Of a DNA stretch of 32,000 nt, positions 16,807 through 25,059 are shown piece after piece. Under the pieces are notes generated by a model that worked only from the letters and a program-made list of their open reading frames with translations, had not been told where the DNA came from and searched no databases. The first letter of the stretch is position 1; every line of letters begins with the position of its first letter. Source of the DNA: Gammaproteobacteria bacterium. Lineage in GTDB: Bacteria; Pseudomonadota; Gammaproteobacteria; Xanthomonadales; Rhodanobacteraceae. The stretch lies in contig JAJPJT010000005.1 of the NCBI GenBank assembly GCA_021324095.1, positions 1 through 32,000 of the forward strand, written 5' to 3'. A program made the position numbers and the translations under genes.

Positions 16807-17328
16807 TTGAACCCAATCCTCAACATTGCAGACGCGCAATACGCTGACCTGGCCGAAGGCTCGCGCCGAATGGGTTCCGAAATGCCCGCCGAACGTTTCG
16901 GCGGCCGTCGCGCGGATCTCGGTCGCGCCATCGGCGCGCGCAAACTCGGCTACAACGTCACCGTGATCGCACCGGGGAAGCGTGCGTTCCCGCGCCACAA
17001 CCACCGCGTCAACGAAGAAATGTTCTTCGTGCTGGAAGGCCATGGCGAAATCCGCATCGGCGATGGGCTTTTCCCTGTTCGCGCGGGCGATTTCGTCGCC
17101 TGCCCGGCCGGCGGCCCGGAAACCGCGCACCAGTTTCGCAACACGAGCACCGCCGACCTGAAGATACTCGCGGTCAGCACCATGGAATCACCCGAAATTT
17201 GCGATTACCCGGATTCGGGCAAGTTCGGCGTGCTGGCGTTCTTCGGCGCAGACGCCGAAGGCCGTCCGCAGATGTTCGCGCACATTGGCCGGCCCGGCGA
17301 ATCACGCGACTATTGGGAAGGCGAATAA
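16807..17328 (+). CDS. Cupin-domain protein (paralogue 1)
   Basis: TTG at 16807 lies 5 nt after GAAGGAGG (16794-16801). The N-terminus LNPILNIADAQY aligns with MYANILNLADLE of the neighbour. The metal motif is PRHNHRVNEEMFFVLEGHGEIRIGD...AHQF. Confidence 0.8.
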   Translation: MNPILNIADAQYADLAEGSRRMGSEMPAERFGGRRADLGRAIGARKLGYNVTVIAPGKRAFPRHNHRVNEEMFFVLEGHGEIRIGDGLFPVRAGDFVACPAGGPETAHQFRNTSTADLKILAVSTMESPEICDYPDSGKFGVLAFFGADAEGRPQMFAHIGRPGESRDYWEGE

Positions 17329-17330
17329 CG

Positions 17331-17849
17331 ATGTACGCCAATATCCTGAATCTCGCCGACCTCGAACTGCGCACCGAAAGCCCCGAACGCGCGCCGCATG
17401 GGGAAGGCGCAGGCAAGTACGACATCCGCTGGGCCGAAATCGCCAGCCGCATCGGTGCGCGCAAGCTCGGCTACAACCTTACGGTGGTCGCGCCGGGCAA
17501 ACGCAACTGCCCGTTCCACAGCCATCGTGCGGAAGAAGAAATGTTCTTCATCCTCGAAGGCAGCGGTGAACTGCGTTACGGCGACCGGCGTTACCCCTTG
17601 CGCAAAGGCGACGTGATCGCCTGTCCCACGGGCGGTCCCGAAACGGCACACCAGATTATCAATACGGGCGATATCGAGCTGCGGTATCTGGCGGTCAGCA
17701 CCCTCGCGCCCATCGAGATCTGCGAATACCCGGATTCCGGGAAGTTCGGCGTTTACGAGGATTTGCCGGACCCTGCCCATGCAAGCCATCCACGCTTGCG
17801 CCATGTCGCACGACATGAAGATTCACGCGATTACTGGGAGGGTGAATAG
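17331..17849 (+). CDS. Cupin-domain protein (paralogue 2)
   Basis: The ATG lies 2 nt after the stop of paralogue 1. It reads GYNLTVVAPGKRNCPFHSHRAEEEMFFILEGSGELRYGD...AHQI...SRDYWEGE. It is internal to track ORF 17199-17849. Confidence 0.85.
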   Translation: MYANILNLADLELRTESPERAPHGEGAGKYDIRWAEIASRIGARKLGYNLTVVAPGKRNCPFHSHRAEEEMFFILEGSGELRYGDRRYPLRKGDVIACPTGGPETAHQIINTGDIELRYLAVSTLAPIEICEYPDSGKFGVYEDLPDPAHASHPRLRHVARHEDSRDYWEGE

Positions 17850-17864
17850 TGTCATGAGTTGCAC

Positions 17865-18328
17865 TTCGGCAAGAGCAGTCATCGTTGACACGGATAAACA
17901 CGGATGAACACGGATACAGCACTGGCAGAAGCAGACCTGACGGAACGTGTGATTGGCGTCTTCTATGCCGTATACAACGAACTTGGGCATGGATTTCTGG
18001 AGAGTGTGTATGAAAACTCGCTTGCGCCCGCACTCCGCGAAGCCGGCATTGCCGTCGTGCAACAGGCACCTTTGCGCGTGGACTTTCGTGGACGTACCGT
18101 AGGCGAGTTCCGTGCAGACCTGCTCGTAGAAGATCGGTTGATCGTGGAGATCAAGTCCGTGTCACAGTTGGCGCCTGTCCACGAAGTTCAACTCGTCAAT
18201 TATCTGAAGGCAACTGGCATTCGCGTCGGGCTGTTGATGAACTTCGGTTTGCAGCCTCAATTCAAGCGCCGGATCTTCGGGACTGTTGCATCCCATCCGC
18301 TTTGATCCGCTTTTATCCGTGTCCAAAA

Positions 18329-18331
<3 letters not shown>
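17865..18331. mobile_element. Inverted-repeat-bounded unit carrying the GxxExxY gene (putative selfish or mobile cassette; no transposase)
   Basis: GACACGGATAAA (17887-17898) is the exact reverse complement of TTTATCCGTGTC (18312-18323). Both arms consist of three ~10-bp sub-repeats (ACACGGAT / ATCCGC). Flanks (ttcggcaAGAGC ... gtcCAAAAATG) are shared with the gene-less copy at 23424-23562. Confidence 0.6.
17904..18305 (+). CDS. GxxExxY protein (PD-(D/E)XK nuclease-like superfamily)
   Basis: It reads ...VIGVFYAVYNELGHGFLESVYENSL...RADLLVEDRLIVEIKSV...QLVNYLKATG...GLLMNFG, which includes the GxxExxY and D...E-x-K signatures. Third codon positions are visibly more A/T-rich than in neighbouring genes. 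Confidence 0.88.
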   Translation: MNTDTALAEADLTERVIGVFYAVYNELGHGFLESVYENSLAPALREAGIAVVQQAPLRVDFRGRTVGEFRADLLVEDRLIVEIKSVSQLAPVHEVQLVNYLKATGIRVGLLMNFGLQPQFKRRIFGTVASHPL

Positions 18332-20317
<1,986 letters not shown>

Positions 20318-20329
20318 TCCTTCGAACTG

Positions 20330-21919
20330 TCAGTGACCGCCGACGATGTCGACGTACCCCAACGCCGCTTTCAACGGATCGAGCAAGGCACCGTAGCGTG
20401 CCGCGCGTGCGGTATCGTGCCGCAGCGGCTCGCGCACCTGTGCCGCGCTGGGCGAACGCACGGCGCGGTCGTTGCGATCGAAATCGGCCCAGATGCGCTC
20501 GACACGCAACTCGCAGAACGCCAGCAATGCGCGGGTGTTGCGCTCCGGGCCGGCGAGCAGGTCTTCGTAGACCTGCTCATGGACAAAGCCGGGATAGGAC
20601 GCCCGCCATTGCCGCACGGCGCGATCGAAACCATTCCAGTACGCGGCAAGATCCTCGAAGCGGTGCGTCCAGCCCTGCCCGTCCGCCGTCATGTACTGCC
20701 TATAGCACGAGAAACAGGTTTCGAGCGGATCGCGGCGGCAGACGACCACCTTGGCGCCGGGCAGCATCGCGCAGATCGCGCCCACGAGCAGCCAATTGCC
20801 GGGCAGTTTGTCGGTGAAGAAGGATTTGCGCGCACGCCAGCGCGCGGTGCGTTCCAGATAGCGCTCGCCCAGCCGCTGCCAGTCGCCGGATGACATCGAG
20901 CCGACCCAGTCCGGATAATGGCGCCCCCGCCGCCGTGATTCCTCGGCCAGCACCTGCGGCAGATCGGGCAGTTCGCCGGATGCTTCGACCTGGGAATGCG
21001 AGGCCAGCATTTGTTCGGTGAGGGTCGATCCGGAGCGCGGCAGGCTGGCGATGAAGATTACGCCGCGGCCGAGTTCTGGTTGCGCCGCCATTTTCGGTGG
21101 CGTCGAAAACGCCGCCAGGATTGCGTCCAGGCCACGCGCGAAAACACCCGGATCCCACTGCTGCGTTCGACGGGCGTGAGCATGGGTTTCCTCCAGCACA
21201 TGCATGGCTTCCGCATACCGATCATTCCTGTCCAGCACCCGTGCGATCGCAAAGCCCAGTGCGATGCGGTCCTGCTCGCCGGCCCGCGGGTCGCGGAGGG
21301 CGGCCTGCATCGCGGGCACAGCATCGCTGCCGGGATCCGCGGCCCTCATTTCTGCAAGCCCCCACCATGCAGCACCACACGCAGGGTGCACGGCCAGCAC
21401 TTCACGATACGCAGCCGCCGCGGCATCGGTACGACCGGCCATCTTCCAAAGATCGGCCAGCTGCAACTGCGCGCGCAGGTTGCCCGGAGCAAGTTCGAGT
21501 GCCTTGCGGAGTGCCGCTTCGGCATCGTCGAACCGGACTGCGCGGACACACAGCACGCCGAGGTTGTACCAGGCCGTCACACGATCCGGCGCCAGCGAAC
21601 AGGCCCGTTCCAGCGCATCGAGTGCGTCGTCGAGTCGCCCTTGCACGGCAAGCTCGTGGCCCAGCGCGCAGCAGAATTCGGCGTCGTCCGGCCGGGCGCC
21701 CAGCGCGCGCTGGATCGCGTCCACGGCACCGGCATGATCACCCAGCCGTCCCCGCACCGCGGCGACGAGGCGCAGCACATCCGGATCTTCAGGATGACGT
21801 TCGTTCAATGCGCGCGCGATAGCTTCCGCTTCACGCACGTTGCCGGCAGTGAGCGCCGCGCCGGCACGTGCAAACCGCACCTGCGAATCCGCGTCGAGAT
21901 CTTGCAAACGGCTTGCCAT
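20330..21919 (-). CDS. TPR-repeat sulfotransferase-family protein
   Basis: The N-terminal half is TPR-like helices. The C-terminal half has the PAPS-binding-type motif FIASLPRSGSTLTEQMLASH and ...VVVCRRDPLETCFS. The start is uncertain: 21919 (MASRLQ) avoids overlap with divergent hmgL, and the track gives 22033. Confidence 0.8.
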   Translation of the reverse strand: MASRLQDLDADSQVRFARAGAALTAGNVREAEAIARALNERHPEDPDVLRLVAAVRGRLGDHAGAVDAIQRALGARPDDAEFCCALGHELAVQGRLDDALDALERACSLAPDRVTAWYNLGVLCVRAVRFDDAEAALRKALELAPGNLRAQLQLADLWKMAGRTDAAAAAYREVLAVHPACGAAWWGLAEMRAADPGSDAVPAMQAALRDPRAGEQDRIALGFAIARVLDRNDRYAEAMHVLEETHAHARRTQQWDPGVFARGLDAILAAFSTPPKMAAQPELGRGVIFIASLPRSGSTLTEQMLASHSQVEASGELPDLPQVLAEESRRRGRHYPDWVGSMSSGDWQRLGERYLERTARWRARKSFFTDKLPGNWLLVGAICAMLPGAKVVVCRRDPLETCFSCYRQYMTADGQGWTHRFEDLAAYWNGFDRAVRQWRASYPGFVHEQVYEDLLAGPERNTRALLAFCELRVERIWADFDRNDRAVRSPSAAQVREPLRHDTARAARYGALLDPLKAALGYVDIVGGH

Positions 21920-22022
21920 GGCATCATTACGGGCGTCGAGACCCGCATCCTGATGCGTCGAACGGGGTGCCTGCAAGCGCACCCACGCACGCCAAACCGC
22001 CATCTGGCCAACCGGACCACAC

Positions 22023-22919
22023 ATGCTCCCCAATCACGTTCGCATCGTAGAAGTCGGCGCCCGCGACGGCTTGCAGGACGAGAAAACCGTGGTCCCGACG
22101 CCGGTGAAGATCGAATTGATCGACCGGCTTTCCGCGTGCGGACTGCAAACCATCGAGGCGACCAGTTTCGTGAGCCCGAAGTGGGTGCCGCAGCTCGCCG
22201 ATGCCGAAGAGGTGTACGCCGGCATTACCCGCAAGCCGGGCGTCGATTATCCCGCGCTGGTTCCCAACATGTACGGCTACGATCGCGCGCGCGCCGCGGG
22301 CGTCACCAGCATCGCGGTGTTCACGGCCGCCAGCGAAGCGTTCAACCAGAAAAACGTCAACGCTTCGATCGAGGAATCCATCGAACGCTTCCGCCCGGTG
22401 CTGGAGCGCGCGCGTTCGGAAGGCGTGCGCGTGCGCGGCTATGTCTCCACCGTGCTCGGATGTCCTTACCAGGGCGAAGTGCCGGTCAGCGACGTGGTGC
22501 GCGTTTCGAAACGACTGTACGACCTGGGCTGCGACGAGATTTCACTGGGTGACACCATTGGCGTCGGCACGCCCGTGAAGGCGCGCGCGATGCTGCACGC
22601 GGTCTCAGACGAGGTGCCGATGAAGGCGCTGGCCGTGCATTTCCACGACACCTACGACCAGGCGCTTGCGAACATCCTCTCCTGTCTCGAGGAAGGTGTG
22701 CGCGTGGTGGACAGTTCGGTGTCCGGCACCGGCGGGTGCCCGTATGCCAAGGGCGCGACCGGTAACGTCGCCAGCGAGGACGTCACCTACATGCTGCAGG
22801 GCATGGGCATCGAGACGGGCGTCGACCTGGACAAACTCATCGAAACCGGCTGGTGGCTGGCGCAGCAACTCGGCAAACCGACCTCAAGCCGCGTGACGCG
22901 CGCACGCATGGGAGAGTAG
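22023..22919 (+). CDS. liuE: Hydroxymethylglutaryl-CoA lyase
   Basis: VRIVEVGARDGLQDEK...FVSPKWVPQLAD...GDTIGVGTP...HFHDTYDQALANI...GGCPYAKGATGNV. Confidence 0.92.
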   Translation: MLPNHVRIVEVGARDGLQDEKTVVPTPVKIELIDRLSACGLQTIEATSFVSPKWVPQLADAEEVYAGITRKPGVDYPALVPNMYGYDRARAAGVTSIAVFTAASEAFNQKNVNASIEESIERFRPVLERARSEGVRVRGYVSTVLGCPYQGEVPVSDVVRVSKRLYDLGCDEISLGDTIGVGTPVKARAMLHAVSDEVPMKALAVHFHDTYDQALANILSCLEEGVRVVDSSVSGTGGCPYAKGATGNVASEDVTYMLQGMGIETGVDLDKLIETGWWLAQQLGKPTSSRVTRARMGE

Positions 22920-22920
22920 C

Positions 22921-23409
22921 TTGGCCAACAGCTTCCTGATCCGTCCCATCGAACCGCGCGACGACGCCGCGATCGCCGCCATCATCCGCAGCGTGATGCC
23001 GGAATTCGGCGCCGATGGCGCGGGCTTCGCGATCCACGATGCCGAGGTCGACATGATGAGCACGGTGTATGCGCAACCGCGCAGCGCCTACTTCGTGCTC
23101 GAAGTCGAGGGCAAAGTCCTCGGCGGCGGCGGGGTGGCTCCGCTCGAAAATGCCGAGCCGGATGTGTGCGAACTGCGCAAGATGTATTTCCTGCCCGAGG
23201 CGCGCGGGCTCGGCGCCGGCAAGGCGATGATCGCCCGTTGCATGGACGCCGCGCGCGGGTTCGGGTTCAAACGTTGTTATCTGGAAACCCTCACCGGGAT
23301 GGACGCGGCACAGGCGCTGTACCGCAAACACGGCTTCACGCCCCTGTGCGCGCCGATGGGCAGCACCGGCCACCACGGCTGCGATCGCTGGTTCATTCGC
23401 GAGCTGTGA
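22921..23409 (+). CDS. GNAT-family N-acetyltransferase
   Basis: The TTG start lies one base after the hmgL stop. The acetyl-CoA motif region is ELRKMYFLPEARGLGAGKAMI. The fold length is typical at 162 aa. Confidence 0.8.
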   Translation: MANSFLIRPIEPRDDAAIAAIIRSVMPEFGADGAGFAIHDAEVDMMSTVYAQPRSAYFVLEVEGKVLGGGGVAPLENAEPDVCELRKMYFLPEARGLGAGKAMIARCMDAARGFGFKRCYLETLTGMDAAQALYRKHGFTPLCAPMGSTGHHGCDRWFIREL

Positions 23410-23423
23410 TGCTGTTATTCCGA

Positions 23424-23562
23424 TTCGGCAAAGAGCGAAAATCCTTTGACACGGATCAAAGCGGATGAACACGGACAGATACGGAGATGACTCCTGCTCC
23501 TGACAAGACGGCAACGGTTTTTGATCCGTTCTGATCCGCTCTGATCCGTGTCAAAAATGCTT
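23424..23562. mobile_element. Gene-less (internally deleted) derivative of the GxxExxY element
   Basis: The perfect 13-bp termini are TTTGACACGGATC / GATCCGTGTCAAA. The arms consist of CGGAT / ATCCG sub-repeats. It retains ATGAACACGGA (MNTD), the first codons of the GxxExxY gene, then stops after 12 codons. It shares the outer flanks ttcggcaaAGAGC and CAAAAATG. Confidence 0.65.
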
Positions 23563-23609
23563 GTGCTGCGCCGTTACAATGACCGGTTTTCGCTGGGCGG
23601 GGCAAACGC

Positions 23610-24377
23610 ATGCAACTCGATCAAGTCAGGGCCATCGTCACCGGCGGCGCGTCCGGTCTCGGCCATGCAGTGGCGAAGCACATCGTTGCGCATGGCGGCA
23701 AGGCCGCGCTGTTCGACGTCAATGAGGAAAAAGGACAGGCAGCCGCGAAAGAACTTGGCAACGCCGCGCGCTTCTACAAGACCGACGTGACCAGCGAGGA
23801 TGGCGTCGCCGCCAACGTCGCCAAGGCTCGCGATGCCATGGGTGGACTGAATTTCGTGATGAACTGCGCCGGCATCCTCGGACCGGGCCGCGTGCTCGGC
23901 AAGGAAGGCCCCATGAAGCTCGCCAACTTCCAGACCACCGTAATGGTGAATCTGGTCGGCAGTTTCAACGTCGCCAAGGCCGGTGCCGCGCAGATGCAGT
24001 CCAATGAGCCCGGAGAGGACGGCGAACGCGGCGTGATCGTCAACACCGCTTCGGTCGCGGCCTACGAAGGGCAGATCGGTCAGGCCGCGTATTCGGCCTC
24101 CAAAGGCGGAGTGGTCGGCATGACCCTGCCGATGGCGCGCGAACTGTCGCGCTTCGGCATCCGCGTGATGACCATCGCTCCCGGGATTTTCTGGACACCG
24201 ATGGTGGACGGCATGCCGCCGCAGGTCCAGGAATCGCTGTCGGCATCGATTCCCTACCCTTCGCGCCTCGGCAAGCCGGAAGAGTTCGCCGAAACCGTCG
24301 CGTTCATCCTCGCCAACCGCTACCTCAACGGCAGCGTGATCCGCCTCGATGGTGCGGTGCGGCTCCAACCAAAATAG
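23610..24377 (+). CDS. Type-2 3-hydroxyacyl-CoA dehydrogenase (SDR; HSD17B10-like, 3-hydroxy-2-methylbutyryl-CoA dehydrogenase)
   Basis: AIVTGGASGLGHAVA...NCAGI...NTASVAAYEGQIGQAAYSASKGGVVGMTLPMARE...IAPGIFWTPM. Confidence 0.88.
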   Translation: MQLDQVRAIVTGGASGLGHAVAKHIVAHGGKAALFDVNEEKGQAAAKELGNAARFYKTDVTSEDGVAANVAKARDAMGGLNFVMNCAGILGPGRVLGKEGPMKLANFQTTVMVNLVGSFNVAKAGAAQMQSNEPGEDGERGVIVNTASVAAYEGQIGQAAYSASKGGVVGMTLPMARELSRFGIRVMTIAPGIFWTPMVDGMPPQVQESLSASIPYPSRLGKPEEFAETVAFILANRYLNGSVIRLDGAVRLQPK

Positions 24378-24381
24378 AGCA

Positions 24382-24484
24382 AGGGACGAGGGGTGAGTAG
24401 CGAGGGAGCATGGTTGCGTTCTTCGAGTGTCCCACCCCACCTCGTCCTCCGGCCTTGCGCCCACGCTACTCGACCCTAATCCCT
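24382..24484. repeat. Second copy of the 'GAGGGGTGAGTAGCG' inverted-repeat family
   Basis: agggacgaggggtgagtagcgaggg ... cccaccccacctcgtcc ... cccacgctactcgaccctaatccct. Confidence 0.7.
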
Positions 24485-24495
24485 GCGGTTTTTTC

Positions 24496-25059
24496 ATGAA
24501 AGCCTCCGACATCAAGAAAGGCAACGTGGTCGAACATGAAGGCACCGTTTATCAGGTGCGCGACCTCGAGCGCAGCGCGCCGACGGCCCGAGGCGGGAAC
24601 GTCACCTTCCGTTTCACGTTGTATTCGATTCCGGGTGGGCGCAAGTTCGACTTGAGCCTGCGCGCCGACGACGACCTCAAGGAAATGGACCTGGTGCGCC
24701 GCGCCGCGAACTATTCGTACCGCGACGGCGACGCCTTCGTATTCCTCGACGCCGAGGATTACACCCCCTACACGCTCGGACTGGATGTAGTCGGCGACAG
24801 CGCCGCATACATCGTCGAAGGCGTGGAAGGTTATTACGTGCAGTTGATCGACGACGCCCCCGTCGCGCTGCAGGTCCCGACCAGCGTCGCGCTGACGATC
24901 GTCGATACGGCACCCGAGCTGAAGGGTGCCTCCGCGACCAAACGCACCAAGCCCGCGAAGCTCGACACCGGCATCGAAATCCAGGTGCCGGAATACATCA
25001 CCACCGGCGAGAAGGTTTGGGTGAACACCCTGACGGGCGAGTTCGCGGGTCGAGCTTGA
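24496..25059 (+). CDS. yeiP: Elongation factor P-like protein YeiP/EfpL
   Basis: [21 protein letters not shown]...SAPTARGGN...[10 protein letters not shown]...[13 protein letters not shown]...[13 protein letters not shown] is collinear with E. coli YeiP as I remember it. Confidence 0.9.

What the first reader, a model, noticed from the sequence alone, without database searches (positions are those of the whole stretch)
23424..23562. Gene-less miniature derivative of the GxxExxY cassette 5 kb downstream
This ~140-bp unit has perfect 13-bp termini (TTTGACACGGATC / GATCCGTGTCAAA) and the same CGGAT-periodic arms. It shares the outer flanks ttcggcaaAGAGC (left) and CAAAAATG(c/t)TTG (right) with the full copy.

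It still contains ATGAACACGGA, the first four codons (MNTD) of the GxxExxY gene, followed by an early stop. This is the relationship expected between an autonomous element and its MITE-like deletion derivative, and it is direct evidence that the cassette has duplicated within this genome. It may also act as the terminator or leader between the GNAT and SDR genes.
Basis: seen in the sequence. Interest (0 to 1): 0.62.

Follow-up and report, generated by a model that had tools for sequence, protein, structure and literature searches.

The report
Gene-less copy of decamer-armed hairpin repeat
The 130-base hairpin between the acetyltransferase and dehydrogenase genes is one of at least 54 gene-less copies of a dispersed palindromic repeat; its arms are rows of 10-base units that also bracket this genome's only GxxExxY nuclease gene, and I found no published description of such a repeat-plus-nuclease system.

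Summary
A perfect 13-bp inverted repeat (23445-23457 / 23543-23555) closes a hairpin whose arms are 3-4 decamers phased at exactly 10 bp (TTGACACGGAT, then nAAnnCGGAT).

It is not a lone derivative of the cassette at 17.9 kb. The genome holds 119 such termini: 54 convergent gene-less pairs (78-190 bp) and one pair enclosing the only PF13366 gene.

The strict "deletion derivative" reading fails:
- The loop has no similarity to the gene.
- ATGAACACGGA is a common decamer variant: 9 copies, all inside family members.
- The shared flank is largely a family-wide outer motif (GGCArrrGC).

Eleven congeners have a 41-65 bp empty GNAT-SDR spacer. Four congeneric genomes that carry the CGGAT-armed gene have the site filled, with differing interiors (the G000 and G002 loops tested as unrelated).

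Across 57 congeners, hairpin number tracks the presence of the cognate gene. All seven gene-bearing genomes exceed their nearest gene-less relative on an mccA tree.

Arms do not covary and show no G-U strand bias, and there is no terminator consensus. I therefore favour protein-binding arrays served in trans by the nuclease (REPIN-RAYT-like, but with an unrelated enzyme).

This scan has noted the same system before, on this window (e1-3784881) and in at least 14 genomes.

The parts
23436..23445 (.). Outermost degenerate decamer of the left end (GAAAATCCTT). It matches the family's outer consensus rAArsyTTT.
   Evidence: Position counts over 44 termini and the nhmmer terminus model.
23446..23486 (.). 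Left arm: four phased units, TTGACACGGAT / CAAAGCGGAT / GAACACGGAC / AGATACGGAG. The last two are decayed.
   Evidence: Sequence; terminus model hit 23438-23476, E = 1.7e-8.
23465..23503 (+). Pseudo-ORF MNTDRYGDDSCS*. Its ATG lies inside the decamer junction GGATGAAC. It is not a gene remnant.
   Evidence: ATGAACACGGA occurs 9 times in the genome, always inside family copies. The loop has no similarity to the gene.
23487..23522 (.). Loop or central region, unrelated to other copies and to the GxxExxY gene.
   Evidence: The loop at the same site in G002 is also unrelated.
23523..23555 (.). Right arm: GATCCGTTCT / GATCCGCTCT / GATCCGTGTCAAA, with three phased ATCCG cores.
   Evidence: Sequence; terminus model hit 23522-23562, E = 7.1e-9.
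23556..23564 (.). Right outer unit (AAATGCTTG; reverse complement CAAGCATTT), matching the family's outer consensus.
22921..23409 (+). Upstream GNAT acetyltransferase gene. Its stop is TGA here and in the three other filled alleles, and TAG or TAA in 17 of the 18 alleles without the element (G019 has TGA).
   Evidence: Pfam PF00583, E = 4.9e-18; spacer comparison.
23575..23580 (+). TACAAT, part of the conserved 3' half of the spacer (TACAAT...GTTTGC...GGAG), retained in filled and empty alleles. It is a possible -10 box for the SDR gene, by inference only.
   Evidence: Alignment of 12 orthologous spacers. The consensus scan did not call a promoter.
23610..24377 (+). Downstream short-chain dehydrogenase gene.
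   Evidence: Pfam PF00106, E = 2.3e-46.
17875..18335 (+). The only gene-bearing family member: the same arms enclose the GxxExxY gene (17904-18305). It is inserted exactly at the cupin stop / mccA start.
   Evidence: PF13366 E = 1.3e-39 and TIGR04256 E = 3e-39; single PF13366 hit in the genome; empty sites in congeners.

Best explanation
The unit (about 23436-23564) is one non-autonomous, gene-less copy of a dispersed palindromic repeat family.

Architecture. Each copy has two inverted arms. Each arm holds 2-4 direct decamers phased at exactly 10 bp. The terminal unit is T(T/G)GACACGGAT and the inner units are nAAnnCGGAT. The arms surround a loop of arbitrary sequence.

Origin at this site. 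It is an insertion in a spacer that is 41-65 bp long in 11 congeners. It lies directly after the GNAT stop codon and leaves the conserved SDR-proximal half of the spacer intact.

Relation to the cassette. It is a sibling of the GxxExxY cassette, not a deletion product of it.

Inferred mechanism. The invariant CGGAT cores fall on one face of the helix and are binding sites. The single-copy GxxExxY PD-(D/E)XK nuclease, encoded inside one family member, recognises them in trans. It either multiplies the gene-less hairpins or keeps them from decaying, much as RAYT transposases do for REPINs.

What is shown: family membership, copy number, insertion polymorphism, and the association of copy number with the gene.

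What is inferred: binding and cleavage by the nuclease, and the route of copying.

Any effect on GNAT-SDR expression (read-through block, RNase III site) would be a by-product.
For: Family:
- 119 termini form 54 convergent gene-less pairs plus one pair with the gene.
- TTGACACGGAT occurs 45 times against 0.7 expected.
- There is one PF13366 gene in the genome.

Position-specific conservation:
- The CGGAT cores in unselected units 2 and 3 are near-invariant.
- The spacer positions between them vary freely.

Insertion at this site:
- Eleven congeners have a 41-65 bp spacer. Seven carry other sequence or other repeats.
- G002, G042 and G057 carry a CGGAT-armed element at the same spot with differing interiors; the G000 and G002 loops tested as unrelated.

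Context: elements lie between co-directional (21) or convergent (3) genes and never between divergent ones (0).

Link to the gene:
- The seven congeners with a CGGAT-armed gene have 17-100 two-core hits.
- Gene-less genomes whose mccA locus is assembled have a median of about 1-2 and a maximum of 26.
- On an mccA tree the seven are scattered. Each exceeds its nearest gene-less relative: 7 of 7, sign test 0.008.
- Mann-Whitney P = 5e-5 on the 11-mer counts, not corrected for phylogeny.

A second gene lineage in the genus has different decamers (GCAAATGAAC) and its own gene-less hairpins.

Wider taxa:
- The exact three-unit arm occurs in 10 or more phyla, mostly without a gene.
- Remote genomes show GxxExxY genes bracketed by lineage-specific decamers.
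- N- and C-termini of homologues are encoded by the arms (MNTD/MNADK......IRV...).

Protein:
- Confident PD-(D/E)XK model, pLDDT 91, nearest to Cas4, lambda exonuclease and Hjc.
- D72, E82 and K84 are invariant.

No Y1 transposase is present in the genome.
Against: - No binding, cleavage or transposition was observed.
- No target-site duplication could be defined at this site, because the spacers are too diverged.
- Loops of dispersed copies are unrelated. That is not what recent copy-and-paste of whole elements predicts.
- Hairpins persist without any PF13366 gene. G018, a complete genome, has 18 CGGAT two-core hits and 13 class-B hits. G067 has 26 with an empty mccA site.
- The genomes with the highest and a high count (G006 at 175, G059 at 41) lack a detected gene. 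However, their mccA locus is not assembled.
- The tree rests on one gene that lies next to the cassette.
Confidence: 0.58

Rival explanations
1. The hairpins spread or arise by some other route (host recombination or replication slippage, or an unidentified enzyme). On this view the GxxExxY gene is a passenger or parasite that lodges in the loop of such hairpins, rather than their mobiliser.
For: - Loops tolerate any sequence.
- Gene-less hairpins exist in genomes with no PF13366 gene: G018 (complete) and G067.
- In the genus the CGGAT-armed gene abuts the mccA start in all seven genomes, and the second lineage sits between carA and carB. Gene-bearing genomes also carry a distinct mccA 5' end (MFEK... 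against VF(E/Q)R...). That looks like homing or recombinational spread of the gene, not of the hairpins.
Against: - Seven of seven sister contrasts show more hairpins where the gene is present.
- Each gene lineage has its own decamer type together with matching gene-less copies.
- No other candidate enzyme was found. No Y1 transposase is present.
Confidence: 0.22
2. The hairpin is a host-selected structural signal that acts as RNA or DNA. Possible roles are a terminator, an mRNA 3'-end stabiliser or RNase III site between GNAT and SDR, or a binding array for a nucleoid protein.
For: - The hairpin is very stable.
- The family lies only in co-directional or convergent spacers, that is, in transcribed 3' regions, as REPs do.
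- The cores are conserved position by position.
Against: - There is no terminator-like stem with a T-run and no promoter consensus.
- The arms do not covary at variable positions. They are anti-correlated at positions 1 and 11 (P = 0.0004 and 0.0018).
- G-U-compatible transitions show no sense-strand bias (66 against 52).
- The site is empty in most congeners.
- Copy number ranges from 0 to 175 within one genus.
- No Rfam family matches.
Confidence: 0.1
3. One reading: a full GxxExxY cassette, either this one or a copy once present at this site, lost its gene by internal deletion and left this miniature.
For: - It shares arm architecture with the cassette and has an ATG in the same decamer.
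- The left outer match TTCGGCAA(A)GAGC falls in the top 2% of family flank pairs.
Against: - The loop has no similarity to the gene.
- ATGAACACGGA is found in 8 other family members.
- The outer motif is family-wide.
- None of the three other filled alleles at this site holds a gene.
- There are 54 gene-less copies with mutually unrelated loops.
Confidence: 0.05

Closest known systems
REPIN-RAYT systems (REP doublets with a single-copy REP-associated tyrosine transposase; PMC3116915, PMC3337134, PMC5581495)
   Same: - Short intergenic hairpin-forming inverted doublets are present in tens of copies.
- One enzyme gene per genome is itself flanked by the repeats.
- Repeat number tracks presence of the gene.
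- Within the genus the gene stays at one position, abutting the mccA start.
   Different: - The partner is a ~130-aa PD-(D/E)XK nuclease (PF13366), not a Y1/HUH transposase. No PF01797 is present in the genome.
- The arms are arrays of phased decamers, not a single REP palindrome with a GTAG/CGTC tag.
- The loops are unrelated between copies.
- The same decamers occur across 10 or more phyla, whereas REPIN-RAYT systems are described as mostly vertically inherited (abstract of bioRxiv 10.1101/2022.05.22.493013, listed).
MITEs as deletion derivatives of insertion sequences (Correia, ERIC, RUP, Nezha; from general knowledge)
   Same: - Terminal inverted repeats.
- No coding capacity.
- Many copies.
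- Presence/absence polymorphism at orthologous sites.
- Location in intergenic spacers.
   Different: - It shares no internal sequence with a parent element.
- The interiors of copies are unrelated to each other.
- The 'parent' encodes no recognised transposase.
- No target-site duplication could be defined.
REP/BIME extragenic palindromes acting as mRNA stabilisers or terminators (general knowledge; PMC3733652 for REP classes)
   Same: - Position downstream of genes, in co-directional or convergent spacers.
- Strong hairpin potential.
   Different: - There is no evidence here of selection on pairing.
- There is no T-run.
- The sequence motif and the 10-bp periodic design differ.

Membership tests
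Decamer-armed palindromic repeat family of this genome (undescribed) | Two inverted arms, each with 2 or more direct units phased at 10 bp, with CGGAT cores and a T(T/G)GACACGGAT terminal unit | tested here: met
   Both ends are hit by the terminus model at E = 1.7e-8 and 7.1e-9. Register and cores are shown.
MITE (deletion derivative of an autonomous element) | Internal sequence derived from the autonomous parent | tested here: not met
   Loop against gene interior scores 17, against 15.7 +/- 2.2 in shuffles; 82 of 300 shuffles score at least as high.
MITE (deletion derivative of an autonomous element) | Terminal inverted repeats plus presence/absence polymorphism at orthologous sites | tested here: met
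   A perfect 13-bp inverted repeat. Eleven congeners have a 41-65 bp empty spacer.
MITE (deletion derivative of an autonomous element) | Target-site duplication | tested here: inconclusive
   The spacers of different species are too diverged to place the junctions. For the gene-bearing copy, TGT is present on both sides, which is suggestive only.
REPIN-RAYT | Associated single-copy Y1 (HUH) transposase of the IS200/IS605 type | tested here: not met
   PF01797 has no match in the genome, which is 96% complete. The enclosed gene is PF13366.
REPIN-RAYT | GTAG or CGTC tetranucleotide at the REP 5' end | tested here: not met
   The terminus consensus is rAArsyTTTTGACACGGAT.
REPIN-RAYT | Repeat population size tracks presence of the enzyme gene | tested here: met
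   7 of 7 sister contrasts. This shows analogy, not membership.
Intrinsic (rho-independent) terminator | G+C-rich stem with a short loop, followed by a T-run | tested here: not met
   No terminator-like site was found in 23200-23800 on either strand. The hairpin is followed by AAAATGCTTG.
Rfam RNA families | A match to a curated covariance model | tested here: not met
   Only a chance miRNA hit (E = 0.42) in 17000-25000.
GxxExxY / PDDEXK_3 gene (PF13366, TIGR04256) or its pseudogene | Residual coding similarity to the protein | tested here: not met
   There is one PF13366 match in the whole genome in six frames, at 17934-18269. The only frame in the unit is 12 codons, encoded by decamers.

The most novel reading that the evidence does not exclude
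Decamer-armed hairpins and GxxExxY genes together form a previously undescribed, cross-phylum class of selfish or domesticated DNA. A minimal PD-(D/E)XK nuclease binds phased 10-bp sites and propagates or maintains gene-less hairpins in trans. The gene itself spreads by site-specific homing with co-conversion of neighbouring codons. This would be a functional analogue of REPIN-RAYT built on an unrelated enzyme fold.
Probability: 0.4. Interest if true: 0.85.

Novelty: new variant of a known kind. Interest (0 to 1): 0.64.

Why it matters
**Function of an uncharacterised family.** PF13366 / GxxExxY is a large protein family whose function the 2012 PD-(D/E)XK survey listed as unknown (PMC3424549). 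I found no paper in the library assigning it a role, and the double-decamer repeat sequence itself does not appear in the searched literature. If the nuclease services these hairpins, that would give the family a function.

**Scope of the repeat.** The same explanation would account for a repeat that litters intergenic spacers and operon junctions in many phyla. It would also add a second, mechanistically independent example of the REPIN-RAYT kind of long-term repeat/enzyme partnership.

**Practical annotation points.** The hairpins break assemblies. They create spurious short ORFs (MNTD..., ...IRVHP...). They can replace neighbours' stop and start codons, so recognising them improves annotation.

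Tried and rejected
- **Deletion-derivative test.** Local alignment of the loop against the gene interior was not significant.
- **Flank homology test.** The mini-versus-full flank match is not special within the family.
- **RNA-structure selection.** There is no left/right covariation and no G-U strand bias. There is also no orientation bias relative to transcription.
- **Terminator or promoter role.** Consensus scans found nothing.
- **Rfam.** Nothing relevant.
- **Solved structures by sequence.** No homologue. Only a fold-level match to generic PD-(D/E)XK nucleases, TM about 0.5.
- **RAYT as alternative mobiliser.** No Y1 transposase in the genome.
- **Shared ancestry of the G000 and G002 insertions.** The loops are unrelated. 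The two genomes are not sisters on the GNAT+SDR tree or the mccA tree. The question of hot spot versus old insertion is left open.
- **Strain-level polymorphism.** The other assemblies that carry the identical SDR protein hold an identical spacer, so they give no information.
- **Site sharing for ten other G000 hairpins in five gene-bearing congeners.** Judged from BLAST gap sizes only, most sites are not shared. A few are shared pairwise (C77 with G042; C122 and probably C8 with G002; C35 with G049). This is approximate.

Full report
**1. What is at the coordinates**

The sequence shows a perfect 13-bp inverted repeat: TTTGACACGGATC at 23445-23457 and GATCCGTGTCAAA at 23543-23555.

Inside it the left arm reads TTGACACGGAT / CAAAGCGGAT / GAACACGGAC / AGATACGGAG. 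The right arm reads GATCCGTTCT / GATCCGCTCT / GATCCGTGTCAAA. The CGGAT (or ATCCG) cores therefore recur every 10 bp.

As a single strand the unit folds at -64.2 kcal/mol, z = -6.7.

It lies between a GNAT acetyltransferase gene (22921-23409) and an SDR gene (23610-24377), both on the + strand.

The identical 3.7 kb, hairpin included, is present in two other public assemblies. The unit is therefore not an assembly artefact.

**2. It is one of many copies**

- TTGACACGGAT occurs 45 times in the 3.25-Mb genome, against 0.7 expected.
- A profile of the terminus finds 119 termini.
- These form 54 convergent pairs of 78-190 bp without a gene. One further pair (C21 17875-18335) encloses the GxxExxY gene. 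Eleven termini are unpaired.
- That gene is the only PF13366 match in the genome.

The consensus end is rAArsyTTT-TGACACGGAT-mAAAGCGGAT-nAAnnCGGAT. The cores are near-invariant even in units that were not used to select the sequences, while the positions between cores vary freely.

**3. Test of the 'miniature deletion derivative' reading**

- Similarity between this unit and the gene-bearing copy is confined to the arms and a short outer stretch.
- The loop is no more similar to the gene interior than shuffled loops are: score 17 against 15.7 +/- 2.2, with 82 of 300 shuffles at least as high.
Every occurrence is in a family member. The gene's start codon is part of the decamer, not the reverse.
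- The left 'flank' match ranks in the top 2% of all flank pairs. Its core GGCArrrGC is a family-wide outer motif, in 6 of 103 flanks against 0.3 expected. GCArArGC is in 13 of 103 against 0.4. The TTCGG part is not enriched.
- The right-flank match is unremarkable, at 22%.
- Loops of dispersed copies are unrelated to one another. Only adjacent tandem copies share loops.

The unit is therefore a sibling of the cassette. It is not demonstrably its deletion product.

**4. Empty sites**

GNAT and SDR are adjacent in the congeners searched, with these spacer states:

| State of the GNAT-SDR spacer | Genomes |
|---|---|
| 41-65 bp, empty, keeps the conserved 3' half (..TACAAT..GTTTGC..GGAG..ATG) | 11 genomes |
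| A different G+C-rich palindromic repeat, or other sequence | 7 genomes |
| A 1.4-kb insert | 2 genomes |
| A CGGAT-armed element at the same spot | G002, G042, G057 |

The three filled relatives have interiors of different length and sequence, and the G057 allele is rearranged. The G000 and G002 loops are no more alike than shuffles.

All four filled alleles end GNAT with TGA, whereas 17 of the 18 others use TAG or TAA (G019 has TGA).

G000 and G002 are not sisters on a GNAT+SDR tree or on an mccA tree. Either this spot is a hot spot for palindromic inserts, or the insert is old and was repeatedly lost. I could not decide between these, and the junctions are too diverged to define a target duplication.

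**5. Context and structure tests**

Where both neighbouring genes could be called (by a rough GC3-based ORF heuristic), the elements lie as follows:
- between co-directional genes: 21
- between convergent genes: 3
- between divergent genes: 0

The two arms of an element do not match at variable positions more often than arms of different elements. At positions 1 and 11 they match less often, with permutation P = 0.0004 and 0.0018.

Transition mismatches show no sense-strand G-U preference, at 66 against 52.

No terminator-like or promoter-like consensus and no Rfam family was found.

What is conserved is the core sequence and its 10-bp phase, not the pairing. That points to protein recognition of DNA rather than a selected RNA fold.

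**6. Link to the nuclease gene**

PF13366 is present in 11 of 57 congeners. Two gene lineages exist:
- One has CGGAT arms and abuts the start of mccA. It is found in G000, G049, G002, G042, G062, G003 and G057.
- One has GCAAATGAAC-type arms (GCAAAGGAC in G041 and G014) and sits between carA and carB, except that the downstream gene in G014 was not identified. It is found in G002, G042, G063, G001, G041 and G014.

Two-core hits (CGGATNAANNCGGAT; the reversed control gives 0 everywhere) number 17-100 in the seven genomes with the CGGAT-armed gene. In gene-less genomes whose mccA locus is assembled, the median is about 1-2 and the maximum is 26. The two high-count exceptions, G006 (175) and G059 (41), lack the mccA locus in their assemblies.

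On an mccA tree the seven gene-bearing genomes are scattered. Each has more hairpins than its nearest gene-less relative:

| Gene-bearing genome (hits) | Nearest gene-less relative(s) (hits) |
|---|---|
| G057 (60) | G046 (18) |
| G042 (100) | G061 (1) |
| G003 (55) | G019 (1) |
| G049 (17) | G056 (1) |
| G000 (72) | sister clade (0-13) |
| G002 (58) | G070 (0) |
| G062 (46) | G004 / G071 (2 / 0) |

That is 7 of 7 contrasts, sign test 0.008.

Counter-examples exist. The complete genome G018 has no PF13366 gene, yet holds 18 CGGAT and 13 class-B hits. Hairpins therefore outlive the gene, or do not strictly need it.

**7. Wider distribution**

- In 150 high-quality genomes from 62 other genera of the same order, the two-unit arm occurs once each in two genomes.
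- The exact three-unit arm nevertheless occurs in MAGs and isolates labelled Usitatibacteraceae, Desulfobacterales, Anaerolineae, Caldilineaceae, Xanthomonadales, Verrucomicrobiota, Acidobacteriota, Planctomycetota, Nitrospirae, Latescibacteria and others.
- Only 2 of 80 fetched loci hold a GxxExxY gene between the arms.
- Five such remote genomes all carry PF13366 genes. Two are bracketed by CGGAT decamers and others by different decamers (CAGAT, GCAAAG).
- Close homologues (60-90% identity) start MNTD / MNADK / MDTDK and often end ...IRV..., so both ends of the protein are encoded by the arms.

**8. The protein**

- The model is confident (pLDDT 91.4, pTM 0.85) and has a minimal PD-(D/E)XK core.
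- Its nearest solved folds are Cas4 SSO0001, lambda exonuclease / LHK-Exo and Hjc, at TM about 0.4-0.58.
- D72, E82 and K84 are invariant in 27 homologues.
- No solved sequence homologue exists.
- No Y1 transposase is present in the genome.

**9. Literature**

The searched library lists PF13366 / PDDEXK_3 as a family of unknown function (PMC3424549). It holds no paper linking GxxExxY to repeats. The double decamer does not occur in any paper. REPIN-RAYT is the nearest described system.

**10. Verdict**

The unit is an ordinary member of an unusual family. My best reading, at 0.58, is a non-autonomous hairpin whose phased decamers are binding sites for the GxxExxY nuclease acting in trans. Binding, cleavage and the copying route are inferred, not shown.

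This scan had already flagged the same system on this window (e1-3784881) and in at least 14 genomes.

Noticed in passing
Window 18320-18345, compared with loci L171-L210: Genomes with the CGGAT-armed cassette start mccA with ATG TT(T/C) and a changed run of codons 3-5 (five of the seven read GAA AAA, MFEK(V/I)L). Cupin-context genomes without it start GTG TTC (G/C)A(G/A) CG. (VF(E/Q)RVL), with the GTG overlapping the cupin stop. The cassette thus brings a new start codon and seems to travel with the first few mccA codons, like a co-conversion tract. Caveat: empty genomes with a different upstream gene also start ATG, and G016 and G046 read MFEKIL without the cassette.
   Followed up: partly
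L022, L023, L025, L026, L028 and L030 (congeners G002, G063, G042, G041, G001, G014): A second GxxExxY lineage sits between carA and carB (in G014 the downstream gene was not identified). Its arms are built from a different decamer: GCAAATGAAC, or GCAAAGGAC in G041 and G014. Gene-less hairpins of that type are abundant in G042 (48), G006 (29) and G002 (22). They are at background level in this genome (1).
   Followed up: partly
Orthologous GNAT-SDR spacers L010, L013, L018, L214 and L215: A different G+C-rich palindromic repeat (TAG-GAGCGnGCG...GCTCC) occupies the same spot just after the GNAT stop in five other congeners. This spacer therefore collects palindromic inserts of more than one family.
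   Followed up: no
L213 / L217 (G057 GNAT-SDR spacer, 628 bp): The filled allele in G057 carries a tandem duplication of the GNAT 3' end together with the left arm, followed by several right arms. These elements seem to promote local rearrangement.
   Followed up: no
All 54 paired elements of G000: The two arms of an element differ at positions 1 (T or G) and 11 (A or C) more often than chance allows. Most elements therefore have two non-identical ends and a built-in mismatch near the base of the hairpin. The copy under study is one of the few symmetric ones.
   Followed up: partly
G000:C21:104021-104104 (same contig, outside the window): A third family copy on this contig, 84 bp long, with a doubled terminal unit (ATCCGTGTCAATCCGTGTCAA).
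   Followed up: no
G000:C77:12922-13248 and G000:C50:9299-9506: Clusters of adjacent or overlapping copies with near-identical loops. These are the only cases where loops are shared, which suggests local tandem duplication as one mode of increase.
   Followed up: no
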